Shown here: one piece after another, positions 9,905 through 17,308 of the stretch
Numbering within the stretch: the stretch's first letter is position 1
How the letters are laid out: every line of letters starts with the position of its first letter
Assembly (NCBI RefSeq): GCF_965641715.1
Contig: NZ_OZ282453.1
Reading direction: 5' to 3' (one strand)
Source: Escherichia coli
GTDB taxonomy: Bacteria; Pseudomonadota; Gammaproteobacteria; Enterobacterales; Enterobacteriaceae
Length of the DNA: 64,000 nucleotides
Made by a program: the position numbers and the translations under genes
The notes under the pieces: generated by a model
The model's database searches: none
Told to the model about the DNA's origin: nothing
What the model saw: only the letters and a program-made list of their open reading frames with translations

Positions 9905-10180
9905 ATGAGTATCCGTATCGAGATAAATCATCAGTATGTAGTTACAAGCGATCGCTACCAGTTCATTTTGCAGGAAAAGAAAGTGGCGACTGCTGGAAAA
10001 AATAAAGGTAGCGAATGGCTTGATACTGTCGGGTATTACCCGACGATTCAAAAACTGATTTCTGGTCTGGTACTACATGACCTTTTAAATGGCGGTGCTG
10101 ATAGTTTTGCGGCGTTGGGTGAGCAGGTCGAGCAGTTGGGACTGCAATGTCAGACCGCGTTTTGTGCTGATGGCCGTTGA
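9905..10180 (+). CDS. Hypothetical early protein (P2 orf81/82-position)
   Basis: ORF only; position, RBS aaggagac upstream. Confidence 0.4.
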   Translation: MSIRIEINHQYVVTSDRYQFILQEKKVATAGKNKGSEWLDTVGYYPTIQKLISGLVLHDLLNGGADSFAALGEQVEQLGLQCQTAFCADGR

Positions 10181-12461
10181 GACTCGGGGGCGTATTGCCC
10201 CCTCGCTAGCCCTGCCAATATCTAAGCGCACCGGCGATACTTTCGTTGGTGCTTATCCCTGGAATGCTCCCCGCGCTGCCATTGGCCGTGACAGACCCCT
10301 TACACGTGCCGAATTCCGTCAGGTGCAAGGTGTTTTATACCGGATTGACCGCCTGCCTTTCTTTCTTAAGACGTTGTTTACTTCCCGTTATAACTTCATT
10401 CGTCGCACAAAGAGCCCGCCCGGGGCGCTCTATTTCCTGAAAAACACCTTTGAGCGGAAGCTGTTGCCGCGTCTTGAGCGCGTTAACGAGCTGTGCGGGA
10501 TGAATGAATCTGCGTCGATTGGTTTCTTGTCTGAGCGTGACGAATATGCGCGCTTGCCTGATATGAATGACAAAGAGCTGAAAAAATTTGCGGCCAGAAT
10601 TGCCGCGCAGCTCTGGCGTAAATACGAGGAACTCAGCGACGAATGGGCTGAGGCATTCGGCGGTAAAGAGACCCTTTTCACCGATGAGGCGCAGGTGCAC
10701 ATATATGGTCAGGTGGCTGGTGTTGCACGCGCGTTCAACTTAACCCCGCTCTACTGGAAAAAATACCGTAAGGGTCAGATGACGATCCGCATGGCGTTTT
10801 CCGCTATTTCCCGTCTGATAAAAGATGATTGGTGGGTTAACCAGCTCAAGGCGCAGCGTATGCGCTGGCGCGAGGCGCTGCTTATCGCTGCCGGTGAAGT
10901 CAACAAAGACCGTTCACCTTACGCCAGCAAAATGGCGATCCGCGAGGTTCACTCGCGCCGGCTGGCTAATCTCGAATACCTGAAATCCTGTGAGCTGGAA
11001 AACAAAGTTACCGGCGAACGTATCGACCTCATCAGTAAAGTCATGGGGAGTATTTCAAACCCTGAAATACGCCGTATGGAGCTGATGAACACCATTGCCG
11101 GAATTGAACGCTATGCGGCCAGCGTTGGTGATGTGGGAATGTTTATCACGCTGACCACGCCGTCGAAGTATCACCCGACCCGACAGGTCGGCAAAGGTGA
11201 CAGCAAAACGGTGCAGCTCAATCACGGCTGGAACGAAACCGCATTCACCCCTAAAAACGGCCAGCGCTATCTGTGCCGAATCTGGAGCCTGATGCGTACC
11301 GCTTTCAAAGATAACGATTTGGAAGTGTATGGGATGCGCGTTGTCGAGCCGCACCACGACGGCACGCCACACTGGCATATGATGCTTTTTTGCAAACTCA
11401 GTCAGCGTAAAGCTATCAACGAAATTATGCGTCGTTATGCCCTCAAAGAGGACGGACACGAAAAGGGCGCGGCAAAACAGCGCTTTGAGTCGCGTCACCT
11501 TAATCAGGGGGGCGCGGCGGGTTATATCGCCAAATACATTGCCAAAAATATCGACGGCTACGCGCTTGACGGTCAGCTCGATCACGATACCGGCAAATCT
11601 CTGAAAGATACGGCCGCAGCCGTAACCGCATGGGCGTCTACATGGCGTATCCCTCAGTTTAAACCGATTGGCCTCCCGACAATGGGCGCTTACCGCGAAC
11701 TGCGTAAGCTGCCGCGCGGGGTGAGTATCGCCAGCGAGTTTGACGACCGTGTCGAGGCCGTCCGGGCTGCTGCAGATGAGGGGGAATTTGACCTGTACAT
11801 CAGCGCGCAGGGTGGGGCAAACATGCCGCGTGATGCTCAGGCGGTCAGGGTCGCCCGTAAGGTGACGGATGAGGTAAACGAATACGAGGAGGATATCGAG
11901 AAAGTGGTCGGTATTTATGCCCCTCATCTTGGGGTGAGCCGCGTACATGTAACCCGTACAGCGGAATGGCGCATAGTTCCAAAGGTTTTGGCCGTTGAGC
12001 CTTTGACCTTAAAAAGCGGCTCTGCCGCGCCTCGGAGTCCTGTCAATAACTGTGGAAAGCTTGCCGACGGTGGCGATCCAGTTATGACACCTACACCGTC
12101 TGAGCAAGCCGCAGCGGTGTTAAATCTGATTGAGGCCGGGGTTATCGGCTGGAATGAGCCAGACGTCATGAAGGTTCTTAACGGCGCGTTAAAAGCTGGC
12201 GCACCTCGCAATAATCGCCAGCAAAGAAGCAATGCGCCACTCAAAACGAGCGAGCAAGCTCCATCAGCCAGGATGACAACACCAGAAAGGGATCGCGTGG
12301 CGAAAATTCGTTTCGATTTGGCTCAGGAGGGCATTACCCCAGAACGGTGGGCGCTCGAAGCGCTGGCGCGTGGGGCAACGGTGATTTATGGCGATAAAAA
12401 AATCAAATACGCGGCTGCTGATGAGTGGCCGGGATTCTCAATTCAAGAGGAGCAGAATTAA
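10170..12461 (+). CDS. P2 gpA rolling-circle replication initiation endonuclease (~763 aa)
   Basis: Extensive identity to remembered P2 A; start placed at MAVETRG rather than the upstream extension. Confidence 0.9.
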   Translation: MAVETRGRIAPSLALPISKRTGDTFVGAYPWNAPRAAIGRDRPLTRAEFRQVQGVLYRIDRLPFFLKTLFTSRYNFIRRTKSPPGALYFLKNTFERKLLPRLERVNELCGMNESASIGFLSERDEYARLPDMNDKELKKFAARIAAQLWRKYEELSDEWAEAFGGKETLFTDEAQVHIYGQVAGVARAFNLTPLYWKKYRKGQMTIRMAFSAISRLIKDDWWVNQLKAQRMRWREALLIAAGEVNKDRSPYASKMAIREVHSRRLANLEYLKSCELENKVTGERIDLISKVMGSISNPEIRRMELMNTIAGIERYAASVGDVGMFITLTTPSKYHPTRQVGKGDSKTVQLNHGWNETAFTPKNGQRYLCRIWSLMRTAFKDNDLEVYGMRVVEPHHDGTPHWHMMLFCKLSQRKAINEIMRRYALKEDGHEKGAAKQRFESRHLNQGGAAGYIAKYIAKNIDGYALDGQLDHDTGKSLKDTAAAVTAWASTWRIPQFKPIGLPTMGAYRELRKLPRGVSIASEFDDRVEAVRAAADEGEFDLYISAQGGANMPRDAQAVRVARKVTDEVNEYEEDIEKVVGIYAPHLGVSRVHVTRTAEWRIVPKVLAVEPLTLKSGSAAPRSPVNNCGKLADGGDPVMTPTPSEQAAAVLNLIEAGVIGWNEPDVMKVLNGALKAGAPRNNRQQRSNAPLKTSEQAPSARMTTPERDRVAKIRFDLAQEGITPERWALEALARGATVIYGDKKIKYAAADEWPGFSIQEEQN

Positions 12462-12925
12462 TGAGCAAAATCCATGAGTTAAAAATTGCACCTGAGTATT
12501 TTAACTCTGTGATATCTCAGGAAAAACGTGCTGAATTTCGTCTCAATGACCGCGATTATTCTAGCGGTGATATTCTCGGGTTGCATGAATGGGAACCGGT
12601 AAACAGATATACCGGGAAACGTGTATCAGTGAGGGTGACAAACGTTACGGATTTATCTGAATGGGCGGAAAATTATGTGATGCTGAGTTTTCAGTTAATG
12701 ATGCCAGATGTCCAGTGCGGTATGTCCCTAATGAACTGGAAAGAGTTAAGCGAGAAGGGGCTTGTTTTCAGAGTTAATCACGAAATTCTACACCCGTTAG
12801 GGCTGGCTATTAGATATGAAACACTTAACAGCGTTTCTGGTAGGGCTTACATCGCTGATGATGGTGTCTGGCAATATTCCGACAAGTTGGTCGCAGATGC
12901 TAAAAAAAATGGGTGGTTAAAATGA
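12461..12925 (+). CDS. DUF3850-like (ASCH/PUA-like) protein, 154 aa
   Basis: N-terminal HELKIAPEYF...EFRLNDRDY..GDIL motif; ATG overlaps gpA stop (TAATG). Confidence 0.5.
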   Translation: MSKIHELKIAPEYFNSVISQEKRAEFRLNDRDYSSGDILGLHEWEPVNRYTGKRVSVRVTNVTDLSEWAENYVMLSFQLMMPDVQCGMSLMNWKELSEKGLVFRVNHEILHPLGLAIRYETLNSVSGRAYIADDGVWQYSDKLVADAKKNGWLK

Positions 12926-13161
12926 GTCATATGCGAATGATGCCAGTGCCGCCGATACATTCAACGCAAAACATTAAGCTGATGGCCGTCGTACATCGCC
13001 TGCAACAAATTATGATTAACGAGAATCTGACCCCTGACGAACTGGTCGGGTGTGCCGGTGTCGTCCGGGATAATCACCGCAAATACAGCGATATCAGCAA
13101 TCCGAAAATTGAGGCGTTTCGGCCACCAAATATGGCAAAGCCACCACCGCGTCGACCATAG
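12913..13161 (+). CDS. Hypothetical small protein (82 aa)
   Basis: ORF only, proline-rich basic C-terminus. Confidence 0.3.
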   Translation: MVKMSHMRMMPVPPIHSTQNIKLMAVVHRLQQIMINENLTPDELVGCAGVVRDNHRKYSDISNPKIEAFRPPNMAKPPPRRP

Positions 13162-13443
13162 CAAACGCCGCCGGTGCTGAAACTTGTTTTCAGTGCCAGC
13201 GGTGTTGAGCAACGAGCCCCGCGAGACGTTAGCCTGCACCGTAGAGACCACCCCCAACCGGCACGATTAAAGTCGGTTTTATTATGCAATTTTCCCACAA
13301 TTTCCCGGTTTTTTAGCCGTGCATGCAACAGGTGCATTTTTTTGCATACGTTGGGGATGCCTGTTCTGGCCGCGCGCCGCCAGAGCAGGCGCGGATCCAG
13401 AGTGGTCATGCAACTGCATTAAAAACGACCCATAAAGCGGGCA

Positions 13444-13462
13444 GGCGAGGCGGGGTAAGCGT
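13444..13462. other. cos-like 19-mer ggcgaggcggggtaagcgt (first 12 nt match the P2 cohesive-end sequence as recalled)
   Basis: Partial match to remembered P2 cos GGCGAGGCGGGGAAAGCAC; location between A region and Q is as expected. Confidence 0.3.
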
Positions 13463-13533
13463 TGCGCGCGCCTGTCAAAGATATTAAGATTGTCTCAAAA
13501 TCGATTGATTTTATTGAACTAATGGAGCTAGGA

Positions 13534-15090
13534 ATGATTAAGGGTATAGGTCTTCAAAACTTCAGGAGCTTTGTCAACAAAACGTTTATTGATTTAAAAC
13601 CAATTACAGTATTTGTTGGTAAGAACAGCAGTGGTAAAAGTTCCCTATTGCGCACATTTCCTTTACTTCGTCAATCTGTAGAAGAAAATACTACTGGCCC
13701 AATACTATGGTATGGGAGATATGTGGATTTTGGCGATTTTACAGATGTACTTTCCCGAAACTCTGAAAAAAAAGAAATTACGTTTAGTTTTTCACTCTCA
13801 ATTCCGCCAGAGGTTTCACAAAGATATACATATTATCGTTCTACTGATTTAGCAAAGCAACCAACAGATATTGAAGCAGAGTTAACTGTTTACTCTAAAG
13901 ATAAAAAAACAAAAACGAAAACGATTAAGCTTATATTGGCTGATTTAACAATATTTATTTCAATGGATGAGAGTAGTAATGTTAAATTACTCATTGAATC
14001 AGATGATAAAACAATAGAGCGTGATGGGATAATAGCTAAAAATCTTGGGCAGTTCATACCAAATCTAATTTTGAAGGGTAAGGAAGACAGTCCTCCTCCA
14101 AGCACATCATTCTATTTGAGACATTCTAGGCATGACAGGGCGTTAGAATTGTCATTTATTGATTCAGCGGCGAAATATATAAAGAAATATTTCCATACTA
14201 AATCTGATATAAATCAAGTGACAGAGGCATTCAAAAGAATTGGCTTTATACCCAAAGCGTACGCTAGTAAATTAGTTGCTTTTCTATTTAAGGAACAAAA
14301 AGTTTTTAGTAGAAACTTTGAATTTCAACATGATGAAATAATGAATGAGTTATATCCATTTATAATTGGATGGAATATTAATAATCTTATAGATATAATA
14401 AATACATCCTTGTCAGATTCATTCAGAAATGTAAAGTACATAGCTCCACTGCGTGCTACATCAGAAAGATTTTATCGTTTTCAAGATTTACAGGTTAATG
14501 AGATAGATCATACTGGTTCCAATCTTGCAATGCTTTTGAATTCATTAAGACCGGCTGATAAATCAAAATTTGAAGATTGGACAAAGTTAAATTTTGATTT
14601 CATTATCAAGGTTGAACAAAGTGGCTCTCACTTTGCAATTTTAATAAACACCGGTGAAAATAGTGAGAACTATAATGTTAGTGATATGGGGTTTGGTTAT
14701 TCTCAGGTTTTGCCGATAGTTACAGCCATTTGGCTTGAGACAGAACGTCGTGCTACCACGGTTAGAAAACCTATAACATTTATCATTGAGCAGCCAGAAT
14801 TGCATTTACATCCGTCATATCAGCATAATTTAGCAAGTATTTTTGCAAAAGTAGTAACTAAAGCAAAAGAAAATAATGTAGATTTGAAGATAATTTTTGA
14901 GACACATAGCCAGACCATGATTGAAGCACTTGGTGAATATATTGAGGAAAATGAAAGTCTTTCACAGGATGATATTTCAATACTGGTATTTGAAAAAGAT
15001 GATAAGCAGCAGACTATAGTTAAGAAATCTTATTTTGACGAGAATGGTTTCCTAAAAAATTGGCCGGTTGGCTTTTTCTCGGGTAAGTAG
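13534..15090 (+). CDS. OLD/AAA_21-like ABC ATPase (518 aa), first gene of cargo operon
   Basis: Start MIKGIGLQNFRSF with GGAG RBS; Walker A GKNSSGKSS (13618..13644); Walker B-like FIIEQPELHLHP (14779..14814); FETHS H-loop; AT-rich. Confidence 0.8.
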   Translation: MIKGIGLQNFRSFVNKTFIDLKPITVFVGKNSSGKSSLLRTFPLLRQSVEENTTGPILWYGRYVDFGDFTDVLSRNSEKKEITFSFSLSIPPEVSQRYTYYRSTDLAKQPTDIEAELTVYSKDKKTKTKTIKLILADLTIFISMDESSNVKLLIESDDKTIERDGIIAKNLGQFIPNLILKGKEDSPPPSTSFYLRHSRHDRALELSFIDSAAKYIKKYFHTKSDINQVTEAFKRIGFIPKAYASKLVAFLFKEQKVFSRNFEFQHDEIMNELYPFIIGWNINNLIDIINTSLSDSFRNVKYIAPLRATSERFYRFQDLQVNEIDHTGSNLAMLLNSLRPADKSKFEDWTKLNFDFIIKVEQSGSHFAILINTGENSENYNVSDMGFGYSQVLPIVTAIWLETERRATTVRKPITFIIEQPELHLHPSYQHNLASIFAKVVTKAKENNVDLKIIFETHSQTMIEALGEYIEENESLSQDDISILVFEKDDKQQTIVKKSYFDENGFLKNWPVGFFSGK

Positions 15091-15092
15091 TT

Positions 15093-16205
15093 ATGTTGAT
15101 TAATATCGAAAATGCGACACCTGAGAAGGTGCTAAATAACTCATTTGCCATAGCGGTTGAAAATATACTTCGGGCATTCGCTGAACAAAAACACTTGGTT
15201 ATAGGGGCAAGGGTTTTTTTTAAAACTATTATCAATGATCAAAGCGGGCTTTATAGCCTTTCATCAAAAAGTTACGCGCAAGAGGCTTTGTCGGGTCTAA
15301 CAGAGTACTATGCTATCTTGGATCAGGTCTCATTTTATGTATCTGTCGACTTTAATATTAGTGATAAATCATTTAAATGGGTTCAGATCGGTGAATCTTT
15401 TAAATTTGTTTGTGGTCCATTGTATTTTAATGACTCGGCACAATTGCAAAAAACGAAAATAGTATGTGAAAATCCTTTGGATTCTGATTTTTTTAAGGTT
15501 ATAGCGGCTCATTATGCCGAAGGTATTAACTTATCTCGCTGCGAAATGGGTTTTATCGCTCTAAATGGCGGTGGGGGCAGTACTAAGGATATATTCGAGC
15601 GTGCAATTCAAAATAATGAGATAGTTTTTTGTATTGTGGATAATGACAAAAAACATCCTGGAGCCCCATTCGGAGGTACTTGCTCACATTTTTTGGGCTC
15701 ACAAATTACTCGCTCAGGTTTCGTGGAGATTTTAGATGTACATGAAATAGAATCTCTAGTTCCTTTATCGACAATTGAAGATGTATTAAGAAGTCAAAGT
15801 CAATTGCAACAAAAAGAAAAATCTCTCATTTTCTTTAAGCATCTTTGCTCCGTAGATGAATCAGTAAAATTTTATATTGACCATAAAAAAGGTTTTGATT
15901 TTAAAACAGCCCTTGAACTCGATCGAAAACATGGTGCATATTGGCGTCCGATATTAAAGAAGCTTGATATAAAATATGATTGTGAGTATATCGAATCAAA
16001 ACGTTGTAGCTGCAACGCTGCTTGTGTAAGTTATGATGGTTTTGGAGAGAATTTGCTCAGCAATACATTGAAATATATACAAAAGGGAAGTTTAAAAAAA
16101 TATAATCCTCACCTAACACCAGTGCTTTCTGATAAATGGTATAAGTTAGGTAAGAATTTCTTTAGTTGGAGTTGTGGTCCATATAAAAAAGCAAGGGTTG
16201 GTTAA
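15093..16205 (+). CDS. Partner protein (370 aa) with Toprim-like signature, possible nuclease effector
   Basis: ATG 2 nt after ATPase stop; YAEG (15519..15524), GGGG, IVDNDKKHP (DND at 15639..15647); C-terminal Cys cluster; AT-rich. Confidence 0.65.
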   Translation: MLINIENATPEKVLNNSFAIAVENILRAFAEQKHLVIGARVFFKTIINDQSGLYSLSSKSYAQEALSGLTEYYAILDQVSFYVSVDFNISDKSFKWVQIGESFKFVCGPLYFNDSAQLQKTKIVCENPLDSDFFKVIAAHYAEGINLSRCEMGFIALNGGGGSTKDIFERAIQNNEIVFCIVDNDKKHPGAPFGGTCSHFLGSQITRSGFVEILDVHEIESLVPLSTIEDVLRSQSQLQQKEKSLIFFKHLCSVDESVKFYIDHKKGFDFKTALELDRKHGAYWRPILKKLDIKYDCEYIESKRCSCNAACVSYDGFGENLLSNTLKYIQKGSLKKYNPHLTPVLSDKWYKLGKNFFSWSCGPYKKARVG

Positions 16206-16300: not shown

Positions 16301-17308
16301 TCAAAGTGAATATTTTTTAAATCTTATAACTTCCATTTCTAACCAGTTGTTTAGTTCTTTGAACCGTTCCTGTAAAGGAGTTAACTCATTTCGGACAAAC
16401 ACTTGTGCAGCTTTTACAACATCACCAAAACCGCCAACATTGTCAGGCATAATTCCCATCATTTGTGGTGGTACCCTATGAGCACTCAACAAATCTTCTG
16501 CACTAACCTTTTTGATATTGAAAAAATCATCTTTCGTGGCGACTTCACTCAACGGCACAATCTTGATGCCATCCGGTTTCCCGTTGGGCGCGTAGAAAAA
16601 CAGGTTTTTGAAATTCCCGAGTCCTTTTGAGTCGCGCATCGCGTTACGGAGAGATTCAACATCGGTGCTGCTCTGTGCCGCGTCGGTGACATACATGATG
16701 TACCCCGCATGTGCGCCATTCTGATAATACTTGCGGCGAAACAGGGTAGCGGATTCATTCAGCCAGGCGGAATTAAGCGCGCTCAGGTATTCCGGCATCC
16801 CGTACAGCTCCTGATTGATATCGGGCTCAAGCAGGTGACACACAGAACCGGGGGCGAACGGGTGCGGCTGGGTGTAGCTCGACACGTACCAGTAAACGCC
16901 ATCTTCGACACCCCGGCGGGTGTATTTGGCCGGTGAGGTTTCCAGTTTTAAGAGCTGGCCGGTGACGCTCATGCGCTTCTCAAGATAGCCGTTGGCAAAA
17001 ACCAGATAATCAAGCACAAGGCGACTGAAATCCTGACGTGACAGCAACGGGTGCGGGATATAGGTGCTCGTCAGAATGTTACGTTTCACGTAAATCGGCG
17101 AGCTGTGATGGACGGCGGCGCGCAGGCTTTTTGCCAGTCCCGAGAAATTGACCGGCGGCTCGTACCATTTCCCGTTATTGATACACTCTACGTAGTCGAG
17201 GATGTCGCGGCGATCCAGAACGGGAGAAGGCTCACCAAAGGTGAACGCCTCCATTTTTTGCGGTGCGCTGGCGGTCATTGTGGCGGGTTTCTTCTGTCGT
17301 TTTTTCAT
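16301..17308 (-). CDS. Portal protein (P2 gpQ-like)
   Basis: 335-aa ORF, position opposite terminase P, similarity to P2 Q from memory. Confidence 0.85.
   Translation of the reverse strand: MKKRQKKPATMTASAPQKMEAFTFGEPSPVLDRRDILDYVECINNGKWYEPPVNFSGLAKSLRAAVHHSSPIYVKRNILTSTYIPHPLLSRQDFSRLVLDYLVFANGYLEKRMSVTGQLLKLETSPAKYTRRGVEDGVYWYVSSYTQPHPFAPGSVCHLLEPDINQELYGMPEYLSALNSAWLNESATLFRRKYYQNGAHAGYIMYVTDAAQSSTDVESLRNAMRDSKGLGNFKNLFFYAPNGKPDGIKIVPLSEVATKDDFFNIKKVSAEDLLSAHRVPPQMMGIMPDNVGGFGDVVKAAQVFVRNELTPLQERFKELNNWLEMEVIRFKKYSL

What the first reader, a model, noticed from the sequence alone, without database searches (positions are those of the whole stretch)
14779..14814. Cargo ATPase has Gln at the position of the Walker B catalytic glutamate (IIEQPE instead of the usual DEPE/EEPE)
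In ABC/OLD-type ATPases the residue right after the Walker B acidic residue is the catalytic base. Here the local sequence reads TFIIEQPELHLHP, so if my alignment is right the protein naturally resembles an E-to-Q hydrolysis-deficient variant. That would point to an ATP-binding sensor or scaffold rather than a turnover ATPase. The alignment is by eye and may be off by one or two residues.
Basis: inference. Interest (0 to 1): 0.55.

Follow-up and report, generated by a model that had tools for sequence, protein, structure and literature searches.

The report
Defence ATPase naturally lacking catalytic glutamate
A prophage-carried two-gene anti-phage module encodes an ABC-type ATPase whose catalytic glutamate is replaced by glutamine, and this is a strictly conserved hallmark of a whole ATPase clade, so these systems probably use ATP differently from their studied relatives.

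Summary
FIIEQPELHLHP is encoded at 14779-14814, and Gln420 (CAG, 14791-14793) aligns with the catalytic Glu of P2 Old (E300), Thermus OLD (E277) and PtuA; by motif position it corresponds to AriA E393. Structural biologists engineer E-to-Q at this same PtuA column.

It is not peculiar to this gene. All 381 homologues that cover the motif have Glu-Gln. So do full-length members of the PDC-M55 and HEC-03 families, and Menshen NsnB has Glu-Asn, which is already published. Both Gln codons occur and a Glu codon is one base away, so the amide is under selection. The ATP-binding motifs are intact.

The gene is the first of a coupled pair in the gpA-gpQ defence hotspot of an E. coli P2-like prophage. 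The pair is an AAA_15 + DUF3696 ATPase (518 aa) and a 370-aa partner with an OLD-type Toprim fold and a full set of acidic motifs. It is a divergent branch of the untested PADLOC candidate PDC-M55. It is PARIS-like in architecture but not PARIS.

Most likely the ATPase is an ATP-bound switch or scaffold with slow or gated hydrolysis that restrains the nuclease. That is inference. Rewired catalysis (invariant H-loop His, clade-specific Glu456) is not excluded. Interest is moderate.

The parts
13534..15090 (+). ATPase gene, 518 aa (longest ORF starts at TTG 13462; the annotated ATG at 13534 follows GGAGCTAGGA). It has an AAA_15 / OLD-ABC core plus a C-terminal DUF3696 tail.
   Evidence: AAA_15 1.8e-26, DUF3696 1.2e-6; PADLOC NsnB 4.9e-55, PDC-M55A 7.5e-46, HEC-03B 1.8e-37, AriA 7e-31; RefSeq WP_000589623.1 'DUF3696 domain-containing protein'.
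13618..13641 (+). Walker A / P-loop GKNSSGKS (G29-S36, Lys35).
   Evidence: Invariant in 30 family members and across subfamilies.
14452..14454 (+). Arg307, which takes the place of the Q-loop Gln. An almost invariant loop follows it to residue 330.
   Evidence: Invariant. The Menshen paper reports the Q motif replaced by Arg in NsnB. Residues 306-328 have pLDDT below 50.
14683..14706 (+). Signature-like motif DMGFGYSQ (GxG in place of SGG).
   Evidence: G386 and G388 are invariant clade-wide and S390 nearly so. The same substitution is described for NsnB.
14779..14814 (+). Walker B strand end and D-loop, FIIEQPELHLHP. Glu419 is the Walker B acidic residue, Gln420 (CAG 14791-14793) sits at the catalytic-Glu column, Glu422 is the 'PE' Glu, and His426 is the D-loop His.
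   Evidence: alignments; strand 414-419; 381 of 381 EQ.
14899..14910 (+). H-loop ETHS. His458 is the switch His. Glu456 is a clade-specific invariant Glu two residues before it.
   Evidence: Invariant. E[T/S]H occurs in 380 of 383 sequences. Canonical relatives have S or T there: P2 Old ISTHS, Thermus OLD YSTHS and Eco8 YSTHS, PtuA ITTHS.
14962..15078 (+). DUF3696 C-terminal tail ending in the NWPVGFF motif.
   Evidence: Pfam PF12476. W510, F514 and F515 are invariant clade-wide. In Menshen models the paired DUF3696 tails clamp the effector.
15093..16205 (+). Partner/effector gene, 370 aa. Its ATG lies 2 nt after the ATPase TAG stop (15088-15090). It has an N-terminal domain, an OLD-type Toprim core and a Cys-rich C-terminal region.
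15468..15482 (+). Toprim Glu motif E126-x3-D130 (CENPLDSD).
   Evidence: Invariant. It matches the P2 Old E398/E402 pattern listed.
15639..15647 (+). Toprim DxD motif, D183-N-D185 (followed by K186/K187).
   Evidence: Invariant. It aligns to CIIDSD of PDC-M55B.
15735..15752 (+). Second acidic cluster D215-V-H-E218-I-E220, a candidate metal-B site.
   Evidence: D215, V216, H217, E218 and E220 are invariant in A2. E218 and E220 are invariant across distant partners. It is analogous to the D541/E543 pair of P2 Old.
15987..16025 (+). Cys cluster C299, C305, C307, C311, a possible zinc knuckle.
   Evidence: C305 and C311 are invariant, C299 and C307 nearly so. The local pLDDT is low, about 60.
10089..12461 (+). 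P2 gpA-type replication endonuclease, the left boundary of the hotspot.
   Evidence: phrog_91, 2.8e-297. RefSeq 'replication endonuclease'.
16301..17308 (-). P2 gpQ-type portal gene, the right boundary of the hotspot.
   Evidence: phrog_68, 5.6e-172. RefSeq 'phage portal protein'. The gpA-gpQ interval is the P2 defence hotspot.

Best explanation
The finding lies in the first gene of a two-gene anti-phage module carried as AT-rich cargo in the gpA-gpQ (old/tin) hotspot of an E. coli P2-like prophage.

Gene 1 is an OLD-type ABC ATPase with a DUF3696 tail. Gene 2, probably translationally coupled to it, is an OLD-type Toprim nuclease.

The ATPase keeps every element needed to bind Mg-ATP and to form an ATP-sandwich head dimer: Walker A Lys35, Walker B Glu419, a GxG signature, D-loop His426 and H-loop His458. 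At the catalytic-base position it carries an invariant, positively selected Gln. This is a hallmark of the whole DUF3696 clade, which has Gln in the two-gene systems and Asn in Menshen NsnB.

The most likely consequence (inferred) is that intrinsic ATP hydrolysis is very slow or gated. The resting state would then be a long-lived ATP-engaged oligomer, like engineered E-to-Q ABC proteins, whose paired DUF3696 tails hold the nuclease inactive. A phage cue or a fall in ATP would open the dimer and release or activate the nuclease, which would stop the infection.

Shown here: the alignment, the conservation, the selection, the module architecture and the hotspot location. Inferred: weak hydrolysis, the clamp-and-release step and the trigger.
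For: Alignment of Gln420 to the catalytic Glu: P2 Old DEPE, Thermus OLD EEPE, PtuA wild type DE versus engineered DQ. AriA is D392/E393 by motif position.

Structure: the Walker B strand spans 414-419 in the model. The fold matches Rad50, PtuA, GajA and Eco8.

Conservation: EQ in 119/119, 141/141 full-length representatives of 50%-identity clusters and 120/120 HEC-03-type proteins. EQ also occurs in ten plasmid loci from five phyla, and EN in three Menshen loci.

Selection: CAA and CAG are both used, flanking codons show synonymous turnover, and Glu is one base away. The only EE copy found is frameshifted.

ATP-binding motifs are invariant.

Precedents: AriA E393Q abolishes hydrolysis, defence and AriB release. 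GajA binds nucleotide, lacks hydrolysis and is inhibited by ATP. NsnB models show two DUF3696 tails clamping the effector.

Defence role: the module sits in the gpA-gpQ hotspot. It has a GC of 0.32-0.36 against 0.52-0.59 in the flanks. The same pair occurs in other prophages and defence islands. The related HEC-03 is an experimentally validated defence system in which both genes are required.

Partner as Toprim.
Against: No biochemical data exist for any DUF3696 ATPase in the searched literature.

The strict invariance of H-loop His458, D-loop His426 and clade-specific Glu456 is more than a pure ATP-binding scaffold would seem to need, and it hints at retained chemistry.

Only Gln or Asn is tolerated. 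Ala, Ser and Asp never occur. This suggests the amide has an active role and is not simply the absence of a carboxylate.

The HEC-03 inference uses a family member, not the tested clone.

This particular module has not been tested for defence.
Confidence: 0.55

Rival explanations
1. The ATPase is still a real, possibly trigger-stimulated, hydrolase with a rewired active site. One version has the carboxamide orienting the attacking water, as the catalytic Gln does in Ras-like GTPases. In another, the base is supplied by the longer Walker B Glu419, by the clade-specific Glu456 next to H-loop His458, or in trans by the invariant 306-328 loop, the partner or a phage trigger.
For: His458, His426, Glu419, Glu422 and Glu456 are invariant across subfamilies. 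Glu at H-loop-2 occurs in 380 of 383 clade members, but is S or T in P2 Old, Thermus OLD, Eco8 and PtuA. Only Q or N ever occupies position 420. The invariant loop 306-328 is disordered in the monomer model. From my own recollection, not from the searched papers: E-to-Q mutants of some ABC proteins, such as HlyB, keep residual His-dependent activity.
Against: In every tested relative, E-to-Q or E-to-A at this column abolishes ATPase activity (AriA E393Q and E393A). The one EE variant also has Glu456, so Glu456 is a clade trait and not a strict compensatory partner. No coordinates were available to measure the Glu456 geometry.
Confidence: 0.3
2. The alignment is misleading, and the true catalytic glutamate is Glu422 of the 'PE' dipeptide. 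The site would then be a normal turnover ATPase.
For: Glu422 is invariant and lies two residues from the canonical position.
Against: The same Glu is present in relatives that also keep the canonical Glu: P2 Old DEPE, Thermus OLD EEPE, PtuA DEIE. It is therefore not a compensating gain. Four independent alignments agree on the register. The predicted strand ends at Glu419.
Confidence: 0.05
3. The Gln marks a decaying or inactive gene, a pseudo-enzyme remnant riding in the prophage with no function.
For: None beyond the missing catalytic Glu.
Against: Both ORFs are intact, and the pair is conserved from 100% to about 26% identity across phyla. IEQPELHLHP is invariant with synonymous codon turnover. 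The cargo is present in 57 of 5426 complete E. coli genomes, 34 of them at 99% identity or more. Related EQ and EN systems (HEC-03, Menshen) defend experimentally.
Confidence: 0.02

Closest known systems
PADLOC candidate PDC-M55 (A: DUF3696 ATPase; B: partner)
   Same: Same two-gene order. The ATPase matches PDC-M55A (7.5e-46). The partner profile aligns to a true PDC-M55B over the Toprim core (hhalign 95%, E 3e-8). A true PDC-M55 ATPase from a Bacillus plasmid also reads IIEQPELHLHP.
   Different: The window proteins match the PDC-M55 models only partly or weakly: A covers model positions 161-400 of 421, and B scores 19 bits with E 2e-4. The ATPase is about 50 residues longer, with a larger insert. 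PDC-M55 is itself an untested candidate, and no paper mentions it.
PARIS (AriA ABC ATPase + AriB Toprim nuclease)
   Different: AriA has a canonical D392-E393, and E393Q kills its function. Here Gln is natural. The partner has no DUF4435 match, which the PARIS detection rule requires. The ATPase has a DUF3696 tail and is closer to NsnB than to AriA.
Menshen (NsnA DUF262/ParB + NsnB ATPase + NsnC effector)
   Same: NsnB is the best PADLOC hit (4.9e-55). It shares the AAA_15 + DUF3696 architecture, the Q-loop Arg, the GxG signature, and an amide at the catalytic-Glu column (EN published; ENPE in three loci). Some NsnC effectors are Toprim-fold.
   Different: No DUF262/NsnA gene is present. The residue is Gln, not Asn. 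The partner is unrelated to NsnC by profile comparison. The ATPase is about 150 residues longer than the Menshen NsnB proteins sampled here (365-428 aa).
HEC-03 (DUF3696 ABC ATPase + PIN protein), experimentally validated
   Same: The ATPase belongs to the same clade (1.8e-37). A full-length HEC-03 family member reads MEQPEIHLHP, and 120 of 120 of its relatives are EQ. Both genes are required for defence.
   Different: The effector is a small VapC-like PIN protein, not a Toprim protein, and is unrelated to the partner here.
P2 Old / Class 1 OLD nucleases and Gabija GajA
   Same: The same ATPase superfamily and Toprim nuclease chemistry. P2 Old occupies the very same gpA-gpQ hotspot. GajA is a precedent for an OLD-ABC domain that binds but does not hydrolyse ATP.
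   Different: ATPase and Toprim are fused in one polypeptide. The Walker B is a canonical DE (P2 Old) or EE (Thermus OLD). The H-loop is STHS, not ETHS. There is no DUF3696 tail.

Membership tests
ABC ATPase superfamily, OLD-ABC / AAA_15 branch | Walker A GxxxxGK[ST], N-terminal beta-hairpin, Walker B hhhh[D/E], ...LHP D-loop, THS H-loop, Rad50/SMC-like fold | tested here: met
   Pfam AAA_15 1.8e-26 over residues 25-487. Motifs are invariant. Foldseek finds Rad50, PtuA, GajA and Eco8 at E 1e-12 to 1e-9.
ABC ATPase superfamily, OLD-ABC / AAA_15 branch | Catalytic glutamate directly after the Walker B acidic residue | tested here: not met
   Gln420 occupies this column. EQ is present in 381 of 381 relatives.
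DUF3696 ATPase clade (NsnB / HEC-03 / PDC-M55 type) | AAA_15 core plus C-terminal DUF3696 tail with the W-P-x-G-F-F motif | tested here: met
   PF12476 1.2e-6. W510, F514 and F515 are invariant clade-wide. RefSeq names it 'DUF3696 domain-containing protein'.
DUF3696 ATPase clade (NsnB / HEC-03 / PDC-M55 type) | Walker B E-[Q/N], Q-loop Arg, GxG signature, E-[T/S]-H-S H-loop. This is the clade signature derived here, and part of it is published for NsnB. | tested here: met
.
PARIS | AAA_15 or AAA_21 ATPase adjacent to a DUF4435 (PF14491) protein, the detection rule of Rousset et al. 2022 | tested here: not met
   The ATPase passes (AAA_15, 94 bits). The partner has no Pfam hit even at E<=10. 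The rule is quoted.
PARIS | AriA Walker B D-E, with hydrolysis required for trigger-induced AriB release | tested here: not met
   The sequence is E-Q here, against AriA D392/E393. The hydrolysis requirement itself cannot be tested with these tools.
Menshen | NsnA (ParB-DUF262) gene immediately upstream of the NsnB-like ATPase | tested here: not met
   The upstream genes are gpA, a DUF3850 protein and a small phage ORF. True Menshen loci L010, L011 and L014 do show DUF262 upstream.
Menshen | NsnC effector with an inPIN N-terminal domain | tested here: not met
   There is no PADLOC NsnC hit for the partner. hhalign against an NsnC gives probability 0.2%. Whether the partner's N-terminal domain is PIN-like in fold was not resolved.
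PDC-M55 (PADLOC candidate) | Both PDC-M55A and PDC-M55B models matched by adjacent genes | tested here: inconclusive
   A: 7.5e-46, but only over model positions 161-400 of 421. B: E 2e-4, 19 bits. Profile-level homology of B is supported. A true PDC-M55 pair scores 8e-80 and 2.5e-26.
OLD-type Toprim nuclease (partner) | Toprim fold with a conserved Glu, a DxD motif, a second acidic pair and a Lys (two-metal site) | tested here: met
OLD family nuclease (Class 1/2) | ATPase and Toprim domains fused in a single polypeptide | tested here: not met
   There are two separate ORFs with a TAG stop and a 2-nt spacer.
Anti-phage defence system | Confers protection against phage when expressed | not testable with these tools
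   Only contextual support is available: the P2 gpA-gpQ hotspot, defence-island neighbours at other loci, and the validated relative HEC-03.

The most novel reading that the evidence does not exclude
The DUF3696 clade has not lost catalysis but re-engineered it into a gated timer. The invariant carboxamide (Gln/Asn) would orient the attacking water as in Ras-like GTPases. The clade-specific Glu456, beside H-loop His458, would act as a relocated base, or a residue would be supplied in trans by the invariant 306-328 loop, the nuclease partner or a phage trigger. The result would be a homomeric ABC ATPase that holds ATP until a phage cue acts like a GAP and fires hydrolysis to release the nuclease.
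Probability: 0.2. Interest if true: 0.75.

Novelty: new variant of a known kind. Interest (0 to 1): 0.5.

Why it matters
ABC-ATPase-plus-nuclease pairs (PARIS, Septu, Gabija, Menshen, HEC systems) are among the commonest phage defences. An open question, stated explicitly in the HEC preprint, is whether ATP binding or ATP hydrolysis drives them. In PARIS the engineered E393Q mutant cannot release its nuclease.

This study shows a large natural clade, with 2,882 clusters at E<=1e-30, in which every protomer already carries that 'mutation', and at least two member systems defend cells. Either these systems work from the ATP-bound state alone, or they hydrolyse ATP by a non-canonical route. Both outcomes would be informative.

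The E. coli P2 cargo gives an easy test bed: a two-gene module in a native host, with Q420E and Q420A as one-codon changes.

It also matters for annotation. Such proteins should not be assumed to be active ATPases. This module is also missed by PARIS detection rules and by Pfam for its effector.

Tried and rejected
1. Direct sequence search of the ATPase and of a 91-aa Walker B fragment against the PDB gave only weak hits and never reached AriA or GajA. I therefore could not print a residue-level AriA alignment. AriA's D392/E393 come from the paper.

2. A profile of the partner against PDB sequences gave only a spurious TGF-beta receptor hit. Pfam, NCBIfam and PHROGs gave nothing for the partner.

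4. I tested whether the partner is an NsnC-like or HEC-03 PIN-like protein. This was rejected (probability <=0.2%).

5. I tested the idea that Glu456 strictly co-varies with loss of the catalytic Glu. The only EE member also has Glu456, so it is a clade trait and not a proven compensation.

6. The promoter and terminator scan around the cargo found nothing above shuffled expectation, so the operon's promoter is undefined.

7. Literature searches for PDC-M55 and for NsnB ATP hydrolysis found no experimental work.

8. The pseudogene or decay reading was rejected on conservation and codon evidence.
Full report
**1. Observation**

Window 14779-14814 on the + strand reads ttt atc att gag cag cca gaa ttg cat tta cat ccg, which translates to FIIEQPELHLHP. 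It lies in frame inside ORF 13462-15090. RefSeq starts the gene at the ATG at 13534, which is preceded by GGAGCTAGGA. That gives 518 aa, the length of the homologues. In this numbering the motif is E419-Q420-P421-E422, and Q420 is CAG at 14791-14793.

**2. Is Gln at the catalytic-glutamate column?**

Four independent comparators agree on the register.

| Comparator | Motif aligned to IIEQPELHLHP | Evidence |
|---|---|---|
| Thermus OLD (6p74) | IIEEPEMYLHP | |
| Phage P2 Old | FIDEPELYLHP (BLASTP E 1e-5) | |
| Retron PtuA, wild type | IDEIELHLHP | |
| Retron PtuA, PDB entries 9nnb and 9nnk | IDQIELHLHP | |

- The Thermus OLD paper names E276 as the Walker B acidic residue, H283 as D-loop and H310 as H-loop. 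These map to E419, H426 and H458, which puts E277 opposite Q420.
- P2 Old is the classical occupant of this same locus. Its Walker B is D299, its D-loop H306 and its H-loop H332.
- The Q in the two PtuA entries is presumably an engineered hydrolysis-trapping mutation. It sits exactly where the window protein has its natural Gln.
- The AlphaFold model (pLDDT 81.5) has a strand at 414-419 with Q420 right after it. Its fold matches Rad50, PtuA, GajA and Eco8.

The alternative that the following 'PE' Glu422 is the real catalytic residue is weak. That Glu is equally present in all these relatives that also keep the canonical Glu.

**3. It is a clade hallmark, not a lesion**

Counts of Walker B Glu-Gln in each set:
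- 119 of 119 homologues down to 40% identity. A 120th, P0022, reads EQPELHLHS.
- 141 of 141 full-length representatives of 50%-identity clusters. The library holds 28,197 hits at E<=1e-3 and 2,882 at E<=1e-30.
- 120 of 120 relatives of a HEC-03-type ATPase.
- In total, 381 of 381 sequences that cover the motif.

Plasmid relatives at 25-42% identity from Proteobacteria, Firmicutes, Actinobacteria, Deinococcus and Bacteroidetes gave the following:
- EQPE[L/I]H[L/I/V]HP in ten two-gene loci. One is a true PDC-M55 pair and one is a full-length HEC-03 pair.
- ENPE[A/S]HLHP in three loci that have DUF262 upstream and NsnC downstream, which makes them Menshen.
- A single EEPE copy from Acinetobacter. 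That gene is frameshifted between the ATPase body and its DUF3696 tail.

Both Gln codons occur (CAA six times, CAG six times), neighbouring codons show synonymous turnover, and GAA/GAG is one transversion away. The amide is therefore maintained by selection.

[quoted passage not shown] It does not interpret this. I found no mention of the EQ state of the wider clade in the searched literature.

**4. What else is conserved at the site**

Invariant residues across the EQ and EN subfamilies (alignment A4; family alignment A1):

| Element | Residues |
|---|---|
| Walker A | G29, N31, G34, K35, S36 |
| Q-loop substitute | R307 |
| Signature-like | G386-x-G388 (S390 nearly invariant) |
| Walker B / D-loop | E419, P421, E422, H424, L425, H426, P427 |
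| H-loop | E456, H458, S459 |
| DUF3696 tail | W510, F514, F515 |

ATP and Mg binding and head-to-head dimerisation therefore look intact.

Two features are unusual.
- **Clade-specific Glu456.** It lies two residues before the H-loop His and occurs as E[T/S]H in 380 of 383 sequences. P2 Old, Thermus OLD and Eco8 have Ser there, and PtuA has Thr.
- **A near-invariant loop after R307.** Residues 306-328 are almost invariant in the family but have pLDDT below 50 in the monomer model.

**5. The module and its setting**

The ATPase TAG stop (15088-15090) is followed 2 nt later by the ATG of a 370-aa ORF at 15093-16205.

The pair has a GC of 0.32-0.36 against 0.52-0.59 in the flanks. It sits between a P2 gpA replication endonuclease and the gpQ portal and terminase genes. 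This is the cos-proximal hotspot that carries old and tin in P2 and many defence systems in E. coli (PMC9122126). The cargo is found in 57 of 5426 complete E. coli genomes, always on the chromosome.

Distant EQ-type ATPases are each followed immediately by a 368-370-aa partner at 26-42% identity with the same invariant residues. These come from a Rahnella P2-like prophage, a Vibrio island beside smpB, and an Erwinia island.

The partner has no Pfam, NCBIfam, PHROG or PDB sequence match, but other evidence supports a Toprim nuclease:
- Its model is confident (pLDDT 90.2, pTM 0.88).
- Its invariant residues E126-x3-D130, D183-x-D185, E218-x-E220 and K265 reproduce the two-metal pattern listed for P2 Old: E398/E402, D453/D455, D541/E543 and K550.
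- Profile comparison links it to PDC-M55B (95%, E 3e-8) and to the Ruegeria partner (96%, E 2e-9). It does not link to the HEC-03 PIN protein or to NsnC.

A conserved Cys cluster (C299, C305, C307, C311) suggests a zinc knuckle.

**6. Mechanism**

*Shown here:* an ATP-binding-competent OLD-ABC ATPase with a selected amide at the catalytic-base column, paired with a predicted active Toprim nuclease, in a phage defence hotspot.

*Known from relatives:*
- AriA E393Q loses ATPase activity and defence, and no longer releases AriB on Ocr (PMC10802264). E393A is ATPase-dead (PMC11464382).
- GajA binds nucleotide without hydrolysing it and is inhibited by ATP (PMC10568477).
- NsnB is predicted to form a GajA-like tetramer whose paired DUF3696 tails clamp the effector.
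- HEC-03 defends E. coli, and both genes are needed.

*My best inference (about 0.55):* the resting state is a long-lived ATP-engaged oligomer that restrains the nuclease. A phage cue or a fall in ATP opens it. Hydrolysis is slow or gated and does not act as a motor.

*Main rival (about 0.3):* catalysis is rewired. The invariant His458 and the clade-specific Glu456, together with tolerance of only Gln or Asn, argue that the side chain does something active. It might orient water as in Ras-like GTPases, perhaps with stimulation in trans. The misalignment and pseudogene readings are unlikely.

**7. Comparison and membership**

The module works like PARIS in having a split ABC ATPase and Toprim nuclease in a P2/P4 hotspot. 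It is not PARIS, because the partner fails the DUF4435 rule and the Walker B is not DE.

The ATPase belongs to the DUF3696 clade together with Menshen NsnB, HEC-03 and PDC-M55. The module is not Menshen, because it has no DUF262 gene and no NsnC-type effector.

It is best filed as a divergent branch of the untested PADLOC candidate PDC-M55. The PADLOC labels HEC-03A and HEC-03B are swapped relative to the preprint.

**8. Verdict**

It is worth a bench test, because nature has fixed across thousands of defence ATPases the very substitution that inactivates PARIS. Interest is 0.5, and I rate it a new variant of a known kind.

Noticed in passing
window 14449-14517 (ATPase residues 306-328): The loop LRATSERFYRFQDLQVNEIDHTGSN directly after the Q-loop substitute Arg307 is almost invariant in the family (R307, R312, Y314, R315, Q317, D318, Q320, D325, H326, G328, S329, N330). 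It is nevertheless predicted with pLDDT below 50 in the monomer model. It could be an interface or a trans-acting element.
   Followed up: partly
window 14899-14901 (ATPase Glu456): A Glu two residues before the H-loop His is clade-specific and invariant (E[T/S]HS in 380 of 383 sequences). P2 Old, Thermus OLD, Eco8 and PtuA have Ser or Thr there. It may be a relocated catalytic residue or a His partner. It is also present in the single EE variant, so it is not strictly compensatory.
   Followed up: partly
L017:1904-3269 (Acinetobacter soli plasmid pAS843-2): This is the only clade member found with a canonical-looking Glu-Glu Walker B (IIEEPESHLHP). The gene is frameshifted between the ATPase body and its DUF3696 tail and is annotated as two CDSs. 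It may be a decaying copy or a sequencing error.
   Followed up: partly
protein P0241 (representative library): A lone family member reads ETQS instead of ETHS, with the H-loop His replaced by Gln, while keeping EQPELHLHP.
   Followed up: no
window 15987-16025 (partner residues 299-311): A conserved Cys cluster, C-x5-C-x-C-x3-C, lies downstream of the Toprim core. The model confidence there is low (about 60). It is probably a zinc knuckle, which OLD, AriB and GajA are not described as having.
   Followed up: no
window 15093-15450 (partner residues 1-120): The partner has an extra, confidently modelled N-terminal alpha/beta domain before the Toprim core. By analogy with the NsnC inPIN adaptor it may be the ATPase-docking domain. 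Profile comparisons to NsnC and to the HEC-03 PIN protein were negative, and a domain-level fold search could not be run.
   Followed up: partly
window 12425-13161: Two small genes lie between gpA and the cargo. One is a DUF3850/ASCH-like protein (phrog_1812, also hitting an 'RNA-binding protein' PHROG). The other is an 82-aa ORF (phrog_11386). Both are phage families, and the GC dips to 0.44 here. There is no sign that they belong to the defence module.
   Followed up: partly
PADLOC-DB models PDLC04147 / PDLC04148: The database labels are swapped relative to the HEC preprint. 'HEC-03B' (458 positions) is the ATPase and 'HEC-03A' (159 positions) is the PIN protein, whereas the paper calls the ATPase HEC-03A.
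   Followed up: yes
window 13162-13533: The 370-nt interval upstream of the ATPase gene has no sigma-70-like promoter on the + strand in the consensus scan. It does have a terminator-like hairpin on the minus strand at 13442-13428. How the cargo is transcribed in the lysogen is unclear.
   Followed up: no
window 1-64000: ARAGORN finds no tRNA or tmRNA gene anywhere in the 64-kb window, so the prophage attachment site is not at a tRNA within this stretch.
   Followed up: no
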